This document shows, one piece after another, positions 31,309 through 38,236 of a DNA stretch of 64,000 bases. The stretch is taken from the NCBI GenBank assembly GCA_023665365.1, contig JAMPEA010000004.1, positions 32,823-96,822 of the forward strand. The letters run 5' to 3'. A model generated the notes under the pieces. The model had not been told where the DNA came from and ran no database searches. It saw only the letters and a list, made by a program, of their open reading frames with translations. Every line of letters starts with the position of its first letter. Position 1 is the stretch's first letter. Source of the DNA: Bacillota bacterium (lineage in GTDB: Bacteria; Bacillota; Clostridia; Christensenellales; CAG-917). The position numbers were made by a program, and so were the translations under genes.

Positions 31309-31327
31309 TCGCTTGACTAAAAGATAA

Positions 31328-31353
31328 ATCCCCGCAATCTCGCGGGGATTTTT
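31328..31353. terminator. Bidirectional terminator between dnaI and the aldolase-like gene
   Basis: ATCCCCGC-aatctc-GCGGGGAT followed by TTTTAAATTT. Confidence 0.6.
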
Positions 31354-31378: not shown

Positions 31379-32611
31379 TTAATTTTCTTCGAGGTGCGCC
31401 TTGCAAGCGTTTTCTGCAAGCTCGACAAGCGCATAAAGTTCCTGCTCGCTATCCGCTTTGACAATCGCGCCGTGTTGCGCCATAAGACAGACCTTGCAAT
31501 CGCCCGCAAGTTCGGCGGCTTTTTCGTAGCCCTTTTTTGAAAGTATCATCTTCGACGGCAGGCACTTGATTTCATCGCCTAACTTTTCCTTGTATTCGTC
31601 GCCGACGACCGTCATAGGTTTGCCTATCGCGCAAACCGCGGTTATATATCGCGGGCACGCAAATCCTACGACTTTGCCATTCAACGTAATCTTTTTCGCA
31701 ACAGCTTCGCTGTTTTGACTCTGCTGTGCGTCGCTTTCTATATTTTCGTTGGTGACTTCGTCACTTTGACTCTGCTGTCCATCACTATCATTCTTTTCGG
31801 TGACTTCGGCAACTTCGTTGCTTTGACTTTGCTGTTCGTCTCTGTCTTGCTTTTCAGCGACTTCGGCAACTTCGTTGCTTTGGTTCTGTTTTTCGTCGCT
31901 TTCTATATTTTCGGCAACCTCATTGCTTTGGCTTTGATTTGCGTTGCCATCGTTATTTTTGTCGGCTTCTGCGGGTTGAGTGTTTTTGTCGACCTCGACT
32001 TTTTCCTTTGAGGTGAGCTTGTACACGACCTGCTCGATAAACGCGTTTATCGGGTTTATATGCGCTGTGCCGCCCTTGTTTTCGGCAAGGATTTCCGCCG
32101 AGCAAGCCTTATCCAAAACGTCCGTCGCTTTGAGGAGCTCCTTCAAACTGCGCGCCTTGACGACCGCGCCCGCATCGGGCATAAAACAGGCGTTGCGATA
32201 GCCCGCAAGCGACGTAACGATTTCCGCCGCCACGTTTTTGGACGAGCACTTGACCGTCACGCCGAGCAGTTTTGCCACGTTATCCATGACCGCTTGCAGA
32301 GGCTTGCGCTTGCTCGAATATTCGAGAATAGCGTCGCTGTCCACGATAGCCGCGACCTCGGACATTTTGTCCTGACGGATAGCGCAAAAAAGTATAACCG
32401 CCGCCGCGCGGAAGTTGCCCTCGAACGACTCGATATTCTTGTCGTTGACAAATACCACGTCCTTTTCGCCGATATTGTTCAAGTCGGCTTTTTGGGCGGT
32501 GATTGCAATGCCGTCGCCGTCGCGCACCGCGATATATCCGCTTTCGATGAATTTTTTTTCTGAAAAGAGTTTTGCGCACTCGCTGATACTGCCTATGAGT
32601 TTGCTGTCCAT
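31379..32611 (-). CDS. Class II aldolase/adducin-like domain protein interrupted by an acidic Q/S/E-rich repeat linker
   Basis: 410 aa. The N-terminal ~200 aa and C-terminal ~100 aa resemble aldolase-II halves ('MAQHGAIVKADSEQELYALVELAENACKA'). The middle ~90 aa is repetitive ('QSNEVAEVAEKQD...'). Confidence 0.55.
   Translation of the reverse strand: MDSKLIGSISECAKLFSEKKFIESGYIAVRDGDGIAITAQKADLNNIGEKDVVFVNDKNIESFEGNFRAAAVILFCAIRQDKMSEVAAIVDSDAILEYSSKRKPLQAVMDNVAKLLGVTVKCSSKNVAAEIVTSLAGYRNACFMPDAGAVVKARSLKELLKATDVLDKACSAEILAENKGGTAHINPINAFIEQVVYKLTSKEKVEVDKNTQPAEADKNNDGNANQSQSNEVAENIESDEKQNQSNEVAEVAEKQDRDEQQSQSNEVAEVTEKNDSDGQQSQSDEVTNENIESDAQQSQNSEAVAKKITLNGKVVGFACPRYITAVCAIGKPMTVVGDEYKEKLGDEIKCLPSKMILSKKGYEKAAELAGDCKVCLMAQHGAIVKADSEQELYALVELAENACKAHLEEN
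31700..31975 (-). repeat. In-frame imperfect tandem repeat (~50-60 nt units, 4-5 copies)
   Basis: Reiterated gacttcggcaacttcgttgctttg... blocks encode (Q/N)QSNEVAEV(A/T)EK-like units. Confidence 0.7.
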
Positions 32612-32710: not shown

Positions 32711-34039
32711 TTATTTTTTAAGGATAACATCGTCCGCGATAAAAGCGCGATAGATGGCGTTTATCGCTTTTTCGTAGTCGGAAGTATCCACGGCTACGAT
32801 GATATTGAGCTCCGACGAGCCTTGGTCGATCATTCTTACGTTTACGCCGCATTTTGCGAGCGCGTTGAAAAGCGTAGCGGCAGTGCCCTTGCGCGAAGCC
32901 ATTGCGTGTCCGACGGTGGCGATGAGCGCAAGCCCCTTGTGTATATCTATGCTGTCGCCGTTGACAGCGTCCTGCAACCTTGCGAGCACCCTCTGCATTT
33001 TGCTATTCAGATACTCGTCGCGTATCACGACCGACAGCGTATCTATACCCGACGGCAGATGCTCAAAGGAAATCCCCTCCTCCTCCAACACGCCGAGCAC
33101 CTTTCTCCCGAAGCCGATTTCGCTGTTCATCATATCCTTTTCGATATTGATAATCGTAAAGTTTTTCTTGCCTGCTATGCCCGTGATTGCCTTGTCGTCT
33201 TTCTTTTTGAGCTTGCCGTTTGCGACTATCATCGTGCCCTTGTACGACGGATTAAAGGTGTTTCTGATATTTATAGGAATTCCCGCGCTCCTCACGGGAA
33301 AGATTGACTCGGGATGCAACACCTCCGCGCCCATATACGCGAGCTCTCTAAGCTCACGATAGCTGAGGCAGTCTATTATTTTGGGATTATCCACAATGCG
33401 CGGGTCGGCGCTCAAAAAGCCGTCCACGTCCGTCCAGTTTTCATAAACGTCGGCGTTGACGGCGCGCGCGACGATTGCGCCCGTTATGTCCGAGCCGCCC
33501 CTTGAAAACGTCCTTATCTCGCTCTCCGCGTCCGAGCCGTAAAAGCCGGGGATTACAGCCCTTTTTACGCCCGTCAGCCTGTCTTTAAGATTTTCTATGG
33601 ACTTTTCGAGAAGCAAATTCCCTTCCCCGTCAAATAAAATAAGCCCCGCCGCGTCGATAAACTCCGCGCCGAGACGGGACGATAAAACGATTGCGCTCAA
33701 ATACTCTCCGCGAGAGGCGCAAAACTCGCGCGAACGGCGGGTTTCCATATCCCGCTTGACGCAAGAAAGTATGCCTTTTATGTCGAGCTTCGGCGATATT
33801 TCGCTTGCCATATCGCAAAAGCGTTCGCTTATGATTTCAAAACTCTTATCGCAACTGCCCGAAGCGGCGATTTCATCGTAGCAGTTATACAGCGCGTCGG
33901 TTATTTTAATATCCGACTTATCCCTTTTGCCGGGCGCGGATACGACGATAAATCTGCGCGTCCTGTCGCCGTTTATGATTTCGACAACCCGCGCCCTGCC
34001 GTTTGCCATCGAGGTTCCGCCGAATTTGCATACTTTCAT
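32711..34039 (-). CDS. Aspartate kinase
   Basis: 'MKVCKFGGTSMA' N-terminus, the kinase core 'GGSDITGA' and C-terminal ACT-like repeats. 442 aa. Confidence 0.9.
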   Translation of the reverse strand: MKVCKFGGTSMANGRARVVEIINGDRTRRFIVVSAPGKRDKSDIKITDALYNCYDEIAASGSCDKSFEIISERFCDMASEISPKLDIKGILSCVKRDMETRRSREFCASRGEYLSAIVLSSRLGAEFIDAAGLILFDGEGNLLLEKSIENLKDRLTGVKRAVIPGFYGSDAESEIRTFSRGGSDITGAIVARAVNADVYENWTDVDGFLSADPRIVDNPKIIDCLSYRELRELAYMGAEVLHPESIFPVRSAGIPINIRNTFNPSYKGTMIVANGKLKKKDDKAITGIAGKKNFTIINIEKDMMNSEIGFGRKVLGVLEEEGISFEHLPSGIDTLSVVIRDEYLNSKMQRVLARLQDAVNGDSIDIHKGLALIATVGHAMASRKGTAATLFNALAKCGVNVRMIDQGSSELNIIVAVDTSDYEKAINAIYRAFIADDVILKK

Positions 34040-34121: not shown

Positions 34122-35321
34122 CTATATTCTCTTAGCCTCTACGTAATATCTTTTTTCCTGCGCCTCGCCCATAGAGAACGTCTTTTTGCAAAGCGCGCCG
34201 TGCGCCGACACGTATGAAAACAGTTCGTCCTTTTTAAGACGCGGCATAATCACGGCAACGCCCGCGTTGTCCTTTGCGATAGCCGCGAGGTTGTCCTCGC
34301 CGTGAATATAGTCGATTTTGCAAGCGGGATTGGATTTCGCAAATTTTTCAAGCGCTTTTTGCACCGCGCTTATAGCCTCGGCGCAGTTTGAGGGCGCGTC
34401 AAACGCGACTTCCTTGCCGTTTACGACGGCTTTTATCTTGCCGCCGCCGCAAAGCGAATGTTTAAGCTCGTCTATAAGCTCCTCGCCCGCGCCGAACACG
34501 AAACGGTGTATAGGCTCGAACGCAATGCCGTCGTCATAGAGATTTTCCATTTCGCAAAGCGCAAATCTTGCGGGATGCGTCTTGCGCTCCTCCTCGCTCA
34601 AAGTCGGCTTTATCTCATTCCAGTACGCCTGCGCGGTCGCAAGCGAATGGTTGCCGTCGCCGACCGCAAACAGAAAGTCGTCCCCCGCGGCGAGCTTGTC
34701 GCTCGCGTATTTTTCAAACAGCTCGATAGCCTCGTTTGCGTCCACTTTGTAGCCTGCGATATGTCCTCCGCGCATATTGAGGTCGAAATCGTAAAGCGCT
34801 TCGCGCTCAGTCTTTGCAAGCTCCTCTATGACGCTCCTTTTCGCGTCGTCGAGCAAAAGGATTATGTGCGGCAGTTCGAGGGGCGCGCCCTCTCTTATTT
34901 TGAGCCTCGGCGGAATTCTGTCGGCAACGACGTCCTCCGTCGAGCGGATTTGCGCGTGCGACGGGTGCGTAAAGCAGTAGTCTTCAAGGTCGATGCCTAC
35001 AACAAGCCCATATCTGACGCTATCGAATTCGGTCGTTCTCTTGACGAGCACAAAGGTATTTTTATACTCCTTAAATACGCCGTCAGCGAGATATTGCGCC
35101 ATAGTTTTATGTATCTCAGCGATGCGCCTGTCGCCCTCCTTTTCGCCGAGATAGACCTCGGGATAGATGAGCCTAAGCGTACTCTTTTTCTCGCCCACGA
35201 GGGCGTCAAGCTCCCGCCAATAGTCGGGTTGTGAGGTGAACTGGTCGCACGCCACGACCGACCATATCGTATAGTCGGCGGCTTTTGGCAACAGAATATC
35301 TACGGGTTTTATCGCTGTCAT
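34122..35321 (-). CDS. DUF1015 family protein
   Basis: 399 aa. 'IKPVDILLPKAADYTIWSVVACDQFTSQPDYW' and 'FAVGDGNHSLATAQAYW' match the DUF1015 pattern as I recall it. Its ATG overlaps the cdaA stop (TAATG). Confidence 0.75.
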   Translation of the reverse strand: MTAIKPVDILLPKAADYTIWSVVACDQFTSQPDYWRELDALVGEKKSTLRLIYPEVYLGEKEGDRRIAEIHKTMAQYLADGVFKEYKNTFVLVKRTTEFDSVRYGLVVGIDLEDYCFTHPSHAQIRSTEDVVADRIPPRLKIREGAPLELPHIILLLDDAKRSVIEELAKTEREALYDFDLNMRGGHIAGYKVDANEAIELFEKYASDKLAAGDDFLFAVGDGNHSLATAQAYWNEIKPTLSEEERKTHPARFALCEMENLYDDGIAFEPIHRFVFGAGEELIDELKHSLCGGGKIKAVVNGKEVAFDAPSNCAEAISAVQKALEKFAKSNPACKIDYIHGEDNLAAIAKDNAGVAVIMPRLKKDELFSYVSAHGALCKKTFSMGEAQEKRYYVEAKRI

Positions 35322-36175
35322 TATTGAAACCTGTTATTTTTATGTTTTTTCTTGATTTCTCTGCGGACGGCGGAGGTCACGCTGGGCGCGATGCCATAGG
35401 CTGTCTCGATCGCGTCGTTGAGCTTATCCATAGTCATATAGCGGCTGATTTCGCCGTGCTTGACGACGGATATAATGCCCGTCTCCTCGCTGTTGACGAT
35501 TGAAAGCACGTCCGTATCCTCCGTTACGCCGATTGCGGCGCGGTGACGGGTGCCCATCTCCTTATTGACGTTGCGCTGGGTGAGCGTGAGGAAGCACCCC
35601 GCCGCGATGATGCGGTTGCCTCGCACGATGACTGCGCCGTCGTGCAAAGGACCTTTTGTGATAAATATACTTTCAAGCAAAGGCGCGGTCAAAAGCGCGT
35701 CGAGGCGCGTGCCCGTATCGAGGATATTGTCCTTTATTTCGCCCGCGGAGTCGATGATGATAATCGCGCCAACGTCCTGCTTTGCCATATCTTGGCAGGC
35801 GGTGAGGATTTCAAGCGTAGCGGCGCGAAGCTCGTCGTTGCTGTTGTGAAGCTCGATATTACGCGGAGTGGAAACCTTTTGGAAAATGTTTTTGAGGTCG
35901 TTTTGATACACGACGCACGCCGCGACTATATCGAAAACAACGACGAAGTGCGTTATGTATCGCGCAACTTCGAGCGCGCTGTGTCCCACGTATCCCGCGA
36001 CGACGTTGACCGCAATGTCCAAAATCACGCCCGCAAGCAACAACAACAAAACCTTGACATTGCGCTTGTATACAAAAAAGCAGATGATTGCTACAAGCAC
36101 GGCAACCAAAAGCACCGCGTCAATCAAGGCGTACAGGTCGATGTTTTTAAAAAATTCAAAAAAATCGTACTTCAT
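35321..36175 (-). CDS. cdaA: Diadenylate cyclase CdaA
   Basis: Three N-terminal TM helices plus a DisA_N domain ('GPLHDGAVIVRGNRIIAAGCFL', 'GTRHRAAIGVTE'). Confidence 0.9.
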   Translation of the reverse strand: MKYDFFEFFKNIDLYALIDAVLLVAVLVAIICFFVYKRNVKVLLLLLAGVILDIAVNVVAGYVGHSALEVARYITHFVVVFDIVAACVVYQNDLKNIFQKVSTPRNIELHNSNDELRAATLEILTACQDMAKQDVGAIIIIDSAGEIKDNILDTGTRLDALLTAPLLESIFITKGPLHDGAVIVRGNRIIAAGCFLTLTQRNVNKEMGTRHRAAIGVTEDTDVLSIVNSEETGIISVVKHGEISRYMTMDKLNDAIETAYGIAPSVTSAVRREIKKKHKNNRFQ

Positions 36176-36231: not shown

Positions 36232-37101
36232 TCAGATGTCGAACTCGTCGAACACGTTATCGTCGGATTTTTTCTTGTCCGACTGCGGGTCCGTGCCGTC
36301 GAATACGCTGTCGGCGTCGCCTCGCAGTTTGTAGCCTCTGTTGTCGAAGTTCTCGTAAAACTCCCCTCGCGTTTCGGGATTGCGGAATCTGTCGGATTTT
36401 TTCCTAAGCAACTCGCCGAGGACGATAACCGCAATCAGATACGCAAAGTATATGCAGATGACCGCTACGCTCGCGCCGAGTTGCAACTCGGTGATTTCAA
36501 GCGTCTGCCCTATGTCGTAGAGGATTTCCCATATTTCAATCCCGTACGCGCCGCCGTCGAGTATGGAAAGATACACGGAGTTTGAAAATATCACGGATAC
36601 GCCCGCAACAATCATATACACCATAAACCACACTTTAAACACGTTGTACTTTTCAACGGGATTGAGGTTGTACCACTTTGCAATCAAGAAGTACAGCCCT
36701 ATCAGCACGCCCGTAAGCAGAGTGAAGTCGAGCACCGTCGTCGTTATCGTGGCAACGTTCGGGTTGAGTATGGAAAATATCTCGATTATTCCCACGAAAA
36801 ATTTTACGACTGCAACCGCCGCCATCACAAGGTAGCAGAAGTCCGCGCGGGGAACGGCGCGCACGTATCTCATCGAGCTTATATGCCACACTACGAACGC
36901 GCACAAAAACACGACCGCCATCGGCACTATCCCATAGCTCAACGCGTAGCGGATAATCAGCCAAAACACGCTTAGCGCAGAGGTCGGCTCGGCGACGGAC
37001 ACTGCGAGATAAATCTCGTAGGCGTTGCGCACGAGACACGCGATAAGAAGCCCAATCCATATAATCGGAGCATATTTTTTGATAACCTTTCCGTTTGCCA
37101 T
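36232..37101 (-). CDS. Hypothetical polytopic membrane protein with acidic C-terminal tail
   Basis: 289 aa with about 7 hydrophobic helices. No family recognised. Confidence 0.5.
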   Translation of the reverse strand: MANGKVIKKYAPIIWIGLLIACLVRNAYEIYLAVSVAEPTSALSVFWLIIRYALSYGIVPMAVVFLCAFVVWHISSMRYVRAVPRADFCYLVMAAVAVVKFFVGIIEIFSILNPNVATITTTVLDFTLLTGVLIGLYFLIAKWYNLNPVEKYNVFKVWFMVYMIVAGVSVIFSNSVYLSILDGGAYGIEIWEILYDIGQTLEITELQLGASVAVICIYFAYLIAVIVLGELLRKKSDRFRNPETRGEFYENFDNRGYKLRGDADSVFDGTDPQSDKKKSDDNVFDEFDI

Positions 37102-37127: not shown

Positions 37128-38108
37128 TCATATCAAAAGCAACTCGAACATTGCCTGTTGAAGCGCGCCGTTTTCGCTGCGCTTGCCGCTTAGCACGTCG
37201 CATTGCATAGAGTGCAGACAGTCCACGCTCTTTTTCAGCCTCACCTGCGAGTAGGTCGAGGACACCTTTTTGAGATGATACACCGCCCCGCCGCTCATAG
37301 CGAGCAATCCGCCGAGTTCGTCGTTGCTAAGCCCTTTGCCGAGTTCGGCGTGAAGCATCTTGCGATACCTGTCGTAAAGCTGGTTGAGTATGCGCATCGA
37401 GCGCACGCCGTTTTTGTAGAACGTATCGAGCACTCTAAACGCCTTGTCGCCGTCCTTTTTGCTAACCGCGTCGGTGAGTTCGTATATCTGGAAGTCGAAA
37501 TCTTCCGTGACCATAGCGCACACGTCCTCGCGGGTTATAGTCCCGTCCGCGTAGGATTTGAGCTTGACAAGCTCGCTCGCCACGCGCGACATTGCGCCCT
37601 GCGTGCGCCTTGCAAGCTCCGCGATTGCGCCGTCCTCTATGCTCCGCTCGGGCGGGATTTTGCAAATCTTGCGTATCTCGACGGCAAGCTCCCCCTCGCT
37701 AAGCAAGGAGCAATCCACGCTCGCAACGTTTTTGCCCTTCAACGACTTTGCCGCGTCCGCGTCGCACTCCGCAACCAAGACGGACGTTTCGTCGGGAGCG
37801 TCGATATAGGCTTTGAGCGCCTTTTTATCCTCGTCGGACAGCTTTTGAAAAATCGACAGCGCCACAACTCTATATTGCCCGAAAACGGGATATGTATGCA
37901 ACGTCTCGATTGCGTCGGCAACGCCGCCGTCCGCCGAAAAGCGGGAAAAATTGAAATCGGCAAAATCCTCTTCGACAAGGCTAGACAGCGTCTTTATCGC
38001 GTGCTCGCGCAGATAGTCGTCCTCGCCGACCACGACGTAAACGGGAGCAAGTTTTTCAACCCCCGCAATCACGCCGTTCAGATGCTGTGCAAGTTCGCCG
38101 TATTTCAA
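37128..38108 (-). CDS. holA: DNA polymerase III subunit delta
   Basis: 326 aa. 'LAPVYVVVGEDDYLREHAIKTL' is a delta N-terminal pattern, and the length and overall profile fit HolA. Confidence 0.8.
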   Translation of the reverse strand: MKYGELAQHLNGVIAGVEKLAPVYVVVGEDDYLREHAIKTLSSLVEEDFADFNFSRFSADGGVADAIETLHTYPVFGQYRVVALSIFQKLSDEDKKALKAYIDAPDETSVLVAECDADAAKSLKGKNVASVDCSLLSEGELAVEIRKICKIPPERSIEDGAIAELARRTQGAMSRVASELVKLKSYADGTITREDVCAMVTEDFDFQIYELTDAVSKKDGDKAFRVLDTFYKNGVRSMRILNQLYDRYRKMLHAELGKGLSNDELGGLLAMSGGAVYHLKKVSSTYSQVRLKKSVDCLHSMQCDVLSGKRSENGALQQAMFELLLI

Positions 38109-38236
38109 AACGCACCACTCTAATATTTAAGTATATTATATATTAACATTAAAAACGCGGCGTGTAAAGATTATGAGATGATTTTATGAGGCGATTATAC
38201 AAAGTTATTCGCTCAATGTCGAATTGAATTAGAGAT

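What the first reader, a model, noticed from the sequence alone, without database searches (positions are those of the whole stretch)
34122..36175. cdaA is translationally coupled to a DUF1015 gene instead of the usual cdaR-glmM partners
In most Bacillota the diadenylate cyclase gene cdaA is followed by its regulator cdaR and by glmM. Here the cdaA stop and the next start overlap (TAATG at 35319-35323), and the coupled gene encodes a 399-aa DUF1015 protein. No CdaR-like (YbbR-domain) or GlmM gene is present in the window.

Upstream lies an uncharacterised 7-helix membrane protein (36232-37101). Downstream lies aspartate kinase.

Tight coupling suggests stoichiometric co-expression. It raises the possibility that the DUF1015 protein is a partner or modulator of c-di-AMP synthesis in this lineage.
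Basis: partly seen in the sequence, partly recalled or inferred. Interest (0 to 1): 0.55.

Follow-up and report, generated by a model that had tools for sequence, protein, structure and literature searches.

The report
cdaA–DUF1015–aspartate kinase operon of Christensenellales
The c-di-AMP synthase gene really does overlap a DUF1015 gene here, and this order is kept across a whole order of gut Clostridia. However, the DUF1015 protein looks like an ordinary serine-metabolism enzyme, and the overlap appeared when a tiny leftover of the usual regulator gene cdaR was lost.

Summary
**Observation: confirmed.** On the minus strand, cdaA (36175..35321) and a DUF1015 gene (35321..34122) share TAATG. 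No CdaR or GlmM gene is in the window.

**The adjacency is not a one-off.**
- In 91 Christensenellales-type loci, 90 have cdaA directly upstream of DUF1015.
- Aspartate kinase usually lies directly downstream and holA upstream.
- In the sister DUF1015 clade (Oscillospiraceae-type, 78 loci), none has cdaA nearby, which suggests a single origin.

**The DUF1015 protein looks ordinary.**
- It keeps all family motifs.
- Its model matches free serine kinases (SerK, SbnI).
- A 2026 preprint assigns the family to serine metabolism (SerBK).

**New finding.** In about 26 related species a 35–61 aa single-helix ORF sits between cdaA and DUF1015. It aligns with the N-terminal membrane anchor of CdaR (hhalign 91.7%), so it looks like a membrane-anchor-only CdaR remnant. 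It never co-occurs with the orphan membrane protein encoded upstream of cdaA in this window.

**Verdict.** This is a conserved, tightly packed operon. The direct overlap is secondary, following loss of the cdaR remnant. Nothing shows a CdaA–DUF1015 complex, although DUF1015 does occupy the position that glmM holds in Bacilli. This is a new variant of the cdaA module, of moderate interest.

The parts
38194..38222 (-). Best sigma-70-like promoter match (TCGACA, 17 nt spacer, TATAAT; 11 of 12), upstream of holA. Possible operon promoter.
   Evidence: This is a consensus match only.
37128..38108 (-). holA (DNA polymerase III delta subunit), first gene of the conserved block
   Evidence: TIGR01128 at 4.9e-47. 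Found upstream of cdaA in 72 of 86 Christensenellales-type loci.
36232..37101 (-). Orphan multi-helix membrane protein ('TM7', 289 aa). Its cytoplasmic tail is conserved and ends in NVFDEFDI.
   Evidence: No Pfam family above cutoff. Only 26 homologues in the 5.8-billion-protein database. Alignment A4. AF2 model pLDDT 78 with no PDB fold match. Always lies between holA and cdaA, and never co-occurs with the mini-ORF.
35321..36175 (-). cdaA, a membrane diadenylate cyclase with three N-terminal helices and a DAC domain (DGA at 179, RHR at 210)
35319..35323 (-). TAATG: the cdaA stop codon and the DUF1015 start codon share one base
   Evidence: Only a weak AGG lies 12-14 nt upstream of the ATG.
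34122..35321 (-). DUF1015 (SerBK-family) gene, 399 aa, with a fold like free serine kinases
   Evidence: PF06245 at 1.4e-58. AF2 model pLDDT 86.9. Foldseek hits to SerK 5x0j and related entries at E 9e-8, and to SbnI 5uje and 6nr6 at 4e-4. Family motifs conserved.
32711..34039 (-). Aspartate kinase (ask), 82 nt downstream of DUF1015
   Evidence: NF006540, 512 bits against a cutoff of 434. Lies directly downstream of DUF1015 in most Christensenellales-type loci.
31379..32611 (-). Class II aldolase/adducin-domain protein with a low-complexity insert. Last gene before the terminator. Kept only in the closest relatives.
   Evidence: Profile hits in 11 loci.
31326..31351 (.). Strong bidirectional terminator-like hairpin (10-11 bp stem with T runs on both strands). 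Probable operon end.

Best explanation
The TAATG junction is one joint in a tightly packed operon that is conserved across the Christensenellales. The order is holA, then a membrane-protein gene in some clades, then cdaA, then a membrane-anchor-only CdaR remnant in other clades, then DUF1015, then aspartate kinase.

**Shown**
- cdaA encodes a canonical membrane CdaA.
- The DUF1015 gene encodes an ordinary member of the DUF1015 family, with a fold like the free serine kinases SerK and SbnI.
- The gene order is kept in about 99% of sampled species of this clade. It is absent from the sister DUF1015 clade.
- A conserved mini-ORF, similar to the CdaR membrane anchor, separates cdaA and DUF1015 in about a third of the sampled species.

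**Inferred**
- The DUF1015 protein acts in serine/phosphoserine metabolism, like the SerBK proteins of Clostridium botulinum and Bacteroides thetaiotaomicron. Its closest functional tie in the operon is to aspartate kinase (amino-acid biosynthesis), not to CdaA.
- The direct stop/start overlap in this window arose when the small cdaR remnant was deleted in this sub-lineage. DUF1015 initiation probably depends on ribosomes terminating on cdaA, because the Shine-Dalgarno sequence is weak.
- The outcome is co-expression, not necessarily a protein complex.
For: **Conservation and single origin**
- cdaA lies directly upstream in 79 of 80 GTDB species loci.
- Profile searches give cdaA in 84, holA in 72 and ask in 78 of the 89 loci held at that point.
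- Clustering of 169 DUF1015 proteins separates 91 Christensenellales-type loci (90 with cdaA) from 78 Oscillospiraceae-type loci (none with cdaA).
- Pusillibacter carries cdaA with a full-length cdaR, and carries DUF1015 unlinked on the same replicon.

**DUF1015 is an ordinary family member**
- It matches Pfam at 1.4e-58.
- The motifs CDQ[FY]TS, RxPxR, VGDGNHSLATA, PAR, EPI[HY]R, DY[IV]HG, FSMG and KR[YF]Y are conserved, most of them invariant, in both linked and unlinked proteins.
- Foldseek gives SerK and SbnI at probability 1.0.

**Literature on the family**
- CBO1128 complements E. coli serB.
- BT1151 is needed for growth on serine.
- The family is often encoded next to serA and serC (10.1101/2024.10.14.618325).
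- COG4198 genes lie behind glycine riboswitches in Firmicutes (PMC2211319).
- In Pusillibacter the gene sits next to thrH, a phosphoserine phosphatase homologue.
- DUF1015 is followed by ask without cdaA in one locus of the other superclade (L146).

**The overlap is secondary**
- The mini-ORF is present in 26 loci. The spacing from cdaA to the mini-ORF has a median of 2.5 nt. The spacing from the mini-ORF to DUF1015 has a median of 13 nt.
- It matches the CdaR N-terminus: hhalign 91.7%, E 7.9e-7, aligned to CdaR columns 6-31.
- It takes 13 of the top 15 hits among 8001 small ORFs.
- No real membrane protein in these loci scores comparably.
- pN/pS is 0.32-0.60.

**Overlaps are common in the window:** 7 of 40 pairs.

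**Operon signals:** a promoter-like site before holA, a strong terminator after the aldolase-like gene, and none in between.
Against: - Near-perfect retention of cdaA with DUF1015, while CdaA diverges to 34% identity and the outer flanks change, may mean selection for co-expression beyond plain descent.
- DUF1015 occupies the slot that glmM, a known CdaA inhibitor, holds in Bacilli.
- No serA or serC lies near DUF1015 in the window or in the five loci that carry Pfam-annotated gene lists. The usual context for SerBK is therefore missing.
- I could not check whether these genomes encode serA, serC or serB at all.
- The SerBK function itself rests on one complementation experiment and one fitness data set in a preprint. 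Its biochemistry is unresolved.
- The direction of change (loss versus gain of the mini-ORF) is inferred from outgroup gene order, not from a rooted tree.
Confidence: 0.58

Rival explanations
1. DUF1015 has taken over the role of GlmM. It would be a cytoplasmic, metabolite-sensing enzyme that binds the CdaA cyclase domain and tunes c-di-AMP synthesis. The input would be serine/phosphoserine or ATP/ADP status instead of amino-sugar status.
For: - It occupies the same position as glmM after cdaA and cdaR (searches compared with 97).
- No glmM or full-length cdaR lies beside any of about 91 cdaA genes of the clade.
- The adjacency is kept in 90 of 91 loci and the genes are tightly packed.
- DUF1015 has a nucleotide-binding kinase fold.
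Against: - No sequence change separates cdaA-linked DUF1015 proteins from unlinked ones.
- The adjacency has a single origin and is absent from 78 sister-clade loci.
- The gene after cdaR varies in other Clostridia. In Pusillibacter it is an RseC-family gene.
- holA is kept nearly as well.
- No interaction evidence of any kind exists.
Confidence: 0.14
2. The link is regulatory but without contact. Selection keeps cdaA, DUF1015 and ask on one transcript so that c-di-AMP synthesis rises and falls with serine and aspartate-family biosynthesis, which feeds cell-wall diaminopimelate and lysine, and osmolyte pools. c-di-AMP might also bind DUF1015 or the ACT domains of aspartate kinase.
For: - The trio is the conserved core, while the outer flanks change.
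- Spacing is tight throughout.
- From established knowledge, not tested here: c-di-AMP is tied to cell-wall precursor and osmolyte or amino-acid homeostasis in Firmicutes, and cdaA is co-transcribed with the peptidoglycan-precursor gene glmM (PMC10117814).
Against: - The evidence is purely correlative.
- holA in the same block shows that unrelated genes are also retained.
- No c-di-AMP riboswitch or any other Rfam element was found in the window or in 24 loci.
Confidence: 0.2
3. The real lineage-specific partner of CdaA is a small or medium membrane protein encoded next to it, not DUF1015. In one set of clades this would be the membrane-anchor-only CdaR remnant downstream. In the window's clade it would be the orphan membrane protein upstream.
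For: - The two never co-occur: upstream membrane protein only in 45 loci, mini-ORF only in 25, both in 0, neither in 4.
- The mini-ORF is translationally coupled to cdaA and is homologous to the CdaR anchor.
- The upstream membrane proteins share an acidic C-terminal tail ending in an aromatic motif, even across unrelated lengths.
Against: - The mutual exclusivity follows clade structure, so the Fisher p-value overstates independence.
- The orphan membrane protein has no structural or sequence relative of known function.
- This explanation is compatible with the best explanation rather than exclusive of it.
Confidence: 0.3

Closest known systems
cdaA-cdaR-glmM module of Bacillota (B. subtilis, L. 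monocytogenes, S. aureus)
   Same: - A membrane CdaA with three helices and a DAC domain.
- The next gene starts at or over the cdaA stop codon.
- In relatives of this window, the gene after cdaA still encodes a CdaR-like membrane anchor.
- A cytoplasmic enzyme gene follows.
   Different: - There is no YbbR-domain CdaR and no glmM.
- The enzyme genes that follow are DUF1015 and aspartate kinase.
- In the window itself the cdaR remnant is gone and an unrelated membrane-protein gene lies upstream.
SerBK (DUF1015) proteins CBO1128, CDIF630erm_01132 and BT1151 (GapMind 2026 preprint)
   Same: - Same Pfam family, with full-length matches.
- Same remote fold similarity to serine kinases (the paper reports SbnI).
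- Family motifs intact.
   Different: - The gene sits next to cdaA and ask, not serA and serC.
- I could not obtain the characterised sequences, so identity to them and orthology were not measured.
- Function was not tested.
Free serine kinases SerK (Thermococcus kodakarensis, PDB 5X0B-5X0K) and SbnI (Staphylococcus, 5UJE and 6NR6)
   Same: Fold of roughly the first 300 residues. Foldseek gives E 9e-8 to 4e-4, probability 1.0 and target TM-score 0.52-0.63.
   Different: - Sequence similarity is undetectable, with 10-13% identity in the structural alignment.
- DUF1015 is about 160 residues longer and has an extra C-terminal domain.
- Membership of that family is not claimed.
Oscillospiraceae arrangement (Pusillibacter faecalis pMM59_01)
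   Same: Both cdaA and DUF1015 are present, with comparable sequence identity to the window proteins (36% and 42%).
   Different: cdaA overlaps a full-length CdaR gene (433 aa). DUF1015 lies about 255 kb away, between thrH and ispE.

Membership tests
CdaA-type diadenylate cyclase | DAC domain (PF02457) | tested here: met
   1.1e-38, 131.9 bits against a cutoff of 27
CdaA-type diadenylate cyclase | Catalytic DGA and RHR motifs | tested here: met
   DGA at residue 179 and RHR at residue 210
CdaA-type diadenylate cyclase | Three N-terminal transmembrane helices | tested here: met
   Hydropathy segments within residues 8-91. The sequence reads as three hydrophobic stretches: 14-35, 41-62 and 72-91.
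CdaA-type diadenylate cyclase | NCBIfam equivalog TIGR00159 above its curated cutoff | tested here: inconclusive
   171.3 bits against a cutoff of 188.8. It is still by far the best DAC model.
cdaA-cdaR-glmM module | YbbR-domain CdaR gene next to cdaA | tested here: not met
   No YbbR Pfam hit. tblastn with five CdaR proteins found nothing in the window.
cdaA-cdaR-glmM module | glmM next to cdaA or cdaR | tested here: not met
   Motif scan and tblastn with three GlmM proteins were negative in the window. In 91 related loci the only hit was a PGM-like fragment at L071 8-412, about 4.5 kb upstream of cdaA.
DUF1015 / SerBK | PF06245 above the gathering score | tested here: met
   198.8 bits against 25.8
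DUF1015 / SerBK | Serine-kinase-like fold (SerK/SbnI) | tested here: met
   Foldseek against the PDB: the top 8 hits comprise five SerK entries, the uncharacterised Pyrococcus furiosus protein 1vk1 and two SbnI entries, all at probability 1.0
DUF1015 / SerBK | Family-wide conserved motifs intact | tested here: met
   Alignment A2 with three Oscillospiraceae proteins and divergent clade members
DUF1015 / SerBK | Encoded near serA and/or serC | tested here: not met
   Pfam-annotated neighbours in L001-L006 show no 2-Hacid_dh or SerC-type gene. None was found among the window ORFs scanned. The one class-V aminotransferase hit belongs to an Orn/Lys/Arg decarboxylase.
DUF1015 / SerBK | Genome lacks a standard serB; the protein complements serB or phosphorylates serine | not testable with these tools
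   This needs the whole genome and an experiment.
CdaR (applied to the mini-ORFs in related loci, not to the window) | N-terminal membrane anchor homologous to that of CdaR, encoded directly after cdaA | tested here: met
   - hhalign 91.7%, E 7.9e-7, aligned to CdaR columns 6-31.
- HMM ranking.
- Spacing median 2.5 nt.
- Types B and C are clear. Type A (Christensenellaceae) is supported by position only.
CdaR (applied to the mini-ORFs in related loci, not to the window) | Extracytoplasmic YbbR domains | tested here: not met
   The ORFs are only 35-61 aa. There are no YbbR-region tblastn hits.

The most novel reading that the evidence does not exclude
Christensenellales may have rebuilt the control module of CdaA.
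- The extracytoplasmic YbbR sensor was discarded. CdaR was reduced to a 35-61 aa membrane-anchor micro-protein, or replaced by an unrelated multi-pass membrane protein with an acidic, aromatic C-terminal docking tail.
- The cytoplasmic input formerly provided by GlmM is now provided by a serine-kinase-fold enzyme (DUF1015/SerBK), possibly together with aspartate kinase.
- c-di-AMP synthesis would then be tuned by amino-acid or phosphoserine status through direct binding to the cyclase domain.
Probability: 0.12. Interest if true: 0.8.

Novelty: new variant of a known kind. Interest (0 to 1): 0.5.

Why it matters
How CdaA activity is controlled is still unresolved, even in model Firmicutes. CdaR's effect differs between species and its signal is unknown.

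This clade is a natural experiment for that question:
- It has kept cdaA in a fixed operon for a long time.
- It has dropped glmM and the whole extracytoplasmic part of CdaR.
- If the membrane-anchor-only CdaR is functional, the anchor alone matters for CdaA.
- If DUF1015 or Ask influence CdaA, c-di-AMP would be linked directly to amino-acid metabolism.
- If they do not, the locus is a warning that conserved, translationally coupled neighbours need not be partners.

Christensenellaceae are also of interest as heritable, health-associated human gut bacteria. That last point is from general knowledge and was not tested here.

Tried and rejected
- **Riboswitch or leader RNA between cdaA and DUF1015, or before DUF1015.** Rfam at gathering thresholds found nothing in the window. 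It also found nothing in 12 Christensenellales loci or in 12 Oscillospiraceae-type loci. Two further calls failed on the size limit.
- **Promoters or terminators in the 110-225 nt 'gaps' of distant loci.** Nothing convincing was found. The gaps turned out to hold a small ORF. My interim reading that these gaps argue against coupling was therefore dropped.
- **Sequence-level link of DUF1015 to any solved structure.** None, with a single sequence or with a profile.
- **STING_TM Pfam hit of the upstream membrane protein.** E is 7e-4 and the score is below the cutoff, so I treat it as hydrophobic noise. Its AF2 model has no PDB fold match at E below 1.
- **The one exception locus, L055.** Its DUF1015 has no cdaA or ask nearby. 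The neighbours are FtsH, a GGGtGRT protein, YchF, BacA and ArgRS, which points to a rearrangement.
- **L143.** It looked like an independent cdaA-DUF1015 adjacency, but its DUF1015 clusters inside the cdaA-linked subclade with L056, L066 and L071.
- **AlphaFold-Multimer for CdaA with DUF1015.** It is not available here, and the two genes are in different frames, so no in-window fusion could be submitted.
- **Locating cdaR, glmM, serA, serC and serB elsewhere in the genome.** This was not possible.
- **One script timed out** and was rewritten.
Full report
**1. Observation**

- The minus strand carries a 284-aa ORF (36175..35321) and a 399-aa ORF (35321..34122).
- The first matches the DAC domain at 1.1e-38, and its best NCBIfam model is CdaA.
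- It has DGA at residue 179, RHR at residue 210 and three N-terminal hydrophobic segments.
- The second matches PF06245 DUF1015 at 1.4e-58.
- The cdaA TAA and the DUF1015 ATG share one base, giving TAATG at 35323-35319.
- Only a weak AGG lies 12-14 nt before the ATG. This fits termination-reinitiation, but that is an inference.
- Upstream is a 289-aa membrane protein, and holA lies before it. Downstream are aspartate kinase and a class II aldolase-like gene.
- No YbbR or phosphoglucosamine mutase gene is in the 64 kb. Three checks agree:
  - Pfam on 27 ORFs;
  - a motif scan;
  - tblastn with five real CdaR and three real GlmM proteins.
- A promoter-like site precedes holA, and a strong hairpin terminator follows the aldolase-like gene.
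- Overlapping junctions are common in this window: 7 of 40 same-strand pairs.

**2. Is the adjacency conserved?**

- The same protein occurs in two NCBI MAGs with an identical gene order.
- Four homologues at 70, 64, 59 and 54% identity all sit in the order holA, membrane protein, cdaA, DUF1015, ask. In each, cdaA and DUF1015 overlap by 4 nt.
- A scan of one genome per GTDB species returned 80 loci with DUF1015 identity of 45-79%. Where the record titles name anything below class, they mostly say Christensenella, Christensenellaceae, Christensenellales, Catabacter, Coproplasma or Limadaptatus.
- cdaA lies directly upstream on the same strand in 79 of the 80 loci. ask lies directly downstream in most.
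- The one exception, L055, has unrelated neighbours.
- CdaA identity falls to 34% across the set, so the order has survived deep divergence.
- holA is kept upstream in 72 of 86 loci. A gene with no known tie to c-di-AMP is therefore retained nearly as well.

**3. Is it found outside this clade?**

- Three Oscillospiraceae replicons in the plasmid collection carry DUF1015 (42-44% identity). Its neighbours there are adenine deaminase, or thrH and ispE, not cdaA.
- On the same Pusillibacter replicon, cdaA overlaps a full-length CdaR gene about 255 kb away.
- A metagenome scan seeded with a family consensus returned 80 more loci. Only five have cdaA upstream.
- Clustering all 169 DUF1015 proteins gives two superclades:
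  - 91 loci with 90 cdaA-linked;
  - 78 loci with none.
- L143, which looked independent, falls inside a cdaA-linked subclade.
- Neighbours in the unlinked superclade are varied: ispE, spoIIR, NFACT, adenine deaminase, a mini-RNase III and AddB.
- The adjacency therefore most likely arose once and was then kept.

**4. What is the DUF1015 protein?**

- It has no sequence match in the PDB.
- An AF2 model (pLDDT 86.9) hits the free serine kinase SerK at E of about 1e-7 and SbnI at 4e-4, all at probability 1.0.
- This reproduces independently what the GapMind 2026 preprint reports for the C. botulinum protein. That preprint also reports:
  - CBO1128 complements E. coli serB;
  - BT1151 is needed for serine use;
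  - the family often sits by serA and serC.

  It names the family SerBK.
- An older survey found COG4198 genes behind glycine riboswitches.
- The family motifs are identical in cdaA-linked and unlinked proteins, so there is no sign of a new function.
- One locus of the unlinked superclade has DUF1015 followed by ask without cdaA.

**5. The small ORF**

*Where it is*
- In 26 loci, cdaA and DUF1015 are 80-230 nt apart.
- The space holds an intact 35-61 aa ORF with one hydrophobic helix.
- It starts at or over the cdaA stop (median 2.5 nt). It ends a median of 13 nt before DUF1015.
- pN/pS is 0.32-0.60, with pS near saturation.

*What it resembles*
- An HMM built from the first 30-35 residues of seven real CdaR proteins ranks these ORFs first among 8001 small ORFs. 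They take 13 of the top 15 places.
- No genuine membrane protein in the loci scores comparably.
- Profile-profile comparison aligns them to CdaR columns 6-31 at 91.7% probability.
- Two of the three sequence types are clear. The Christensenellaceae type is supported by position only.
- I read this ORF as a membrane-anchor-only CdaR remnant.

*Consequences*
- It never co-occurs with the orphan membrane protein found upstream of cdaA in the window's clade. The counts are 45 with the membrane protein only, 25 with the mini-ORF only, 0 with both and 4 with neither. This pattern follows clade structure, so the statistic overstates independence.
- Other Firmicutes have cdaA followed by cdaR. The direct cdaA/DUF1015 overlap in the window is therefore most simply a secondary result of losing the remnant.

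**6. Comparison with the known module**

- Listeria, Anoxybacillus, Staphylococcus and Lysinibacillus records show cdaA-cdaR-glmM.
- In Christensenellales the order is cdaA, a cdaR remnant or nothing, DUF1015, then ask. DUF1015 therefore holds glmM's slot.
In Pusillibacter the slot is held by an RseC-family gene.

**7. Verdict**

The adjacency is conserved and non-canonical, but there is no evidence for a complex, and there is good evidence that DUF1015 is a standard metabolic enzyme.
- The locus is a new variant of the cdaA module.
- The literature search found no prior mention of a cdaA-DUF1015 link or of Christensenellales c-di-AMP genes.

Noticed in passing
window 36232-37101 (-); alignment A4: The membrane protein upstream of cdaA belongs to an orphan family. 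Only 26 homologues were found and none has a Pfam domain. Its cytoplasmic tail is conserved (FRNPETRGEYY..DNR.Y..R.DA..VF), followed by an acidic linker and an invariant C-terminal VF[DE]EFD[ILM]. The AF2 model (pLDDT 78) has no PDB fold match.
   Followed up: partly
L044 3631-5106, L048 3869-5182, L049 3800-5155, L057 3615-5033, and the TM7-like genes of L045-L054: Membrane or secreted proteins of quite different length encoded just upstream of cdaA all end in an acidic stretch plus a terminal aromatic motif. Examples are DVFEGF, DDNPFGI, DVFKDF, IFKDLGF and ADDLFG. This may be a shared docking tail.
   Followed up: partly
L056-L086 subset and L143, e.g. L063 5870-5989, L065 5750-5935, L058 5772-5915: A conserved 35-61 aa single-helix ORF lies between cdaA and DUF1015 and resembles the CdaR membrane anchor. 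It has three sequence types.
   Followed up: yes
L088 6176-6775 (Pusillibacter faecalis pMM59_01): A thrH gene, annotated as a bifunctional phosphoserine phosphatase/homoserine phosphotransferase, lies directly upstream of DUF1015. This fits a phosphoserine-related role for the family.
   Followed up: no
L146 65-3294: In the superclade not linked to cdaA, one contig has the order ABC-ATPase, DUF1015, aspartate kinase. The DUF1015-ask pair therefore occurs without cdaA.
   Followed up: partly
L029 5809-5995: The 185-nt spacer between cdaA and DUF1015 has no ORF. It is AT-rich and made of imperfect direct repeats (AGAACTCAAACAGAA, GAACTCAATTAGAA).
   Followed up: no
window 31379-32611 (-): The class II aldolase/adducin-like protein carries a long low-complexity insert of repeats such as QSQSNEVAEV and EKQD. 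Pfam matches it in two stretches, the best at residues 315-406. The gene is kept only in the closest relatives.
   Followed up: no
L071 8-412: A PGM/GlmM-like C-terminal fragment (35% identity to Anoxybacillus GlmM, E 2e-14) lies about 4.5 kb upstream of cdaA. It is the only GlmM-like hit in about 1.2 Mb of Christensenellales-type loci.
   Followed up: no
record titles of L020-L027, L047, L065; name of P0121: Several MAGs that carry this Christensenellales-type block are labelled Bacteroidaceae, Bacteroides sp. or Subdoligranulum in their records. These are probably submitter mislabels.
   Followed up: no
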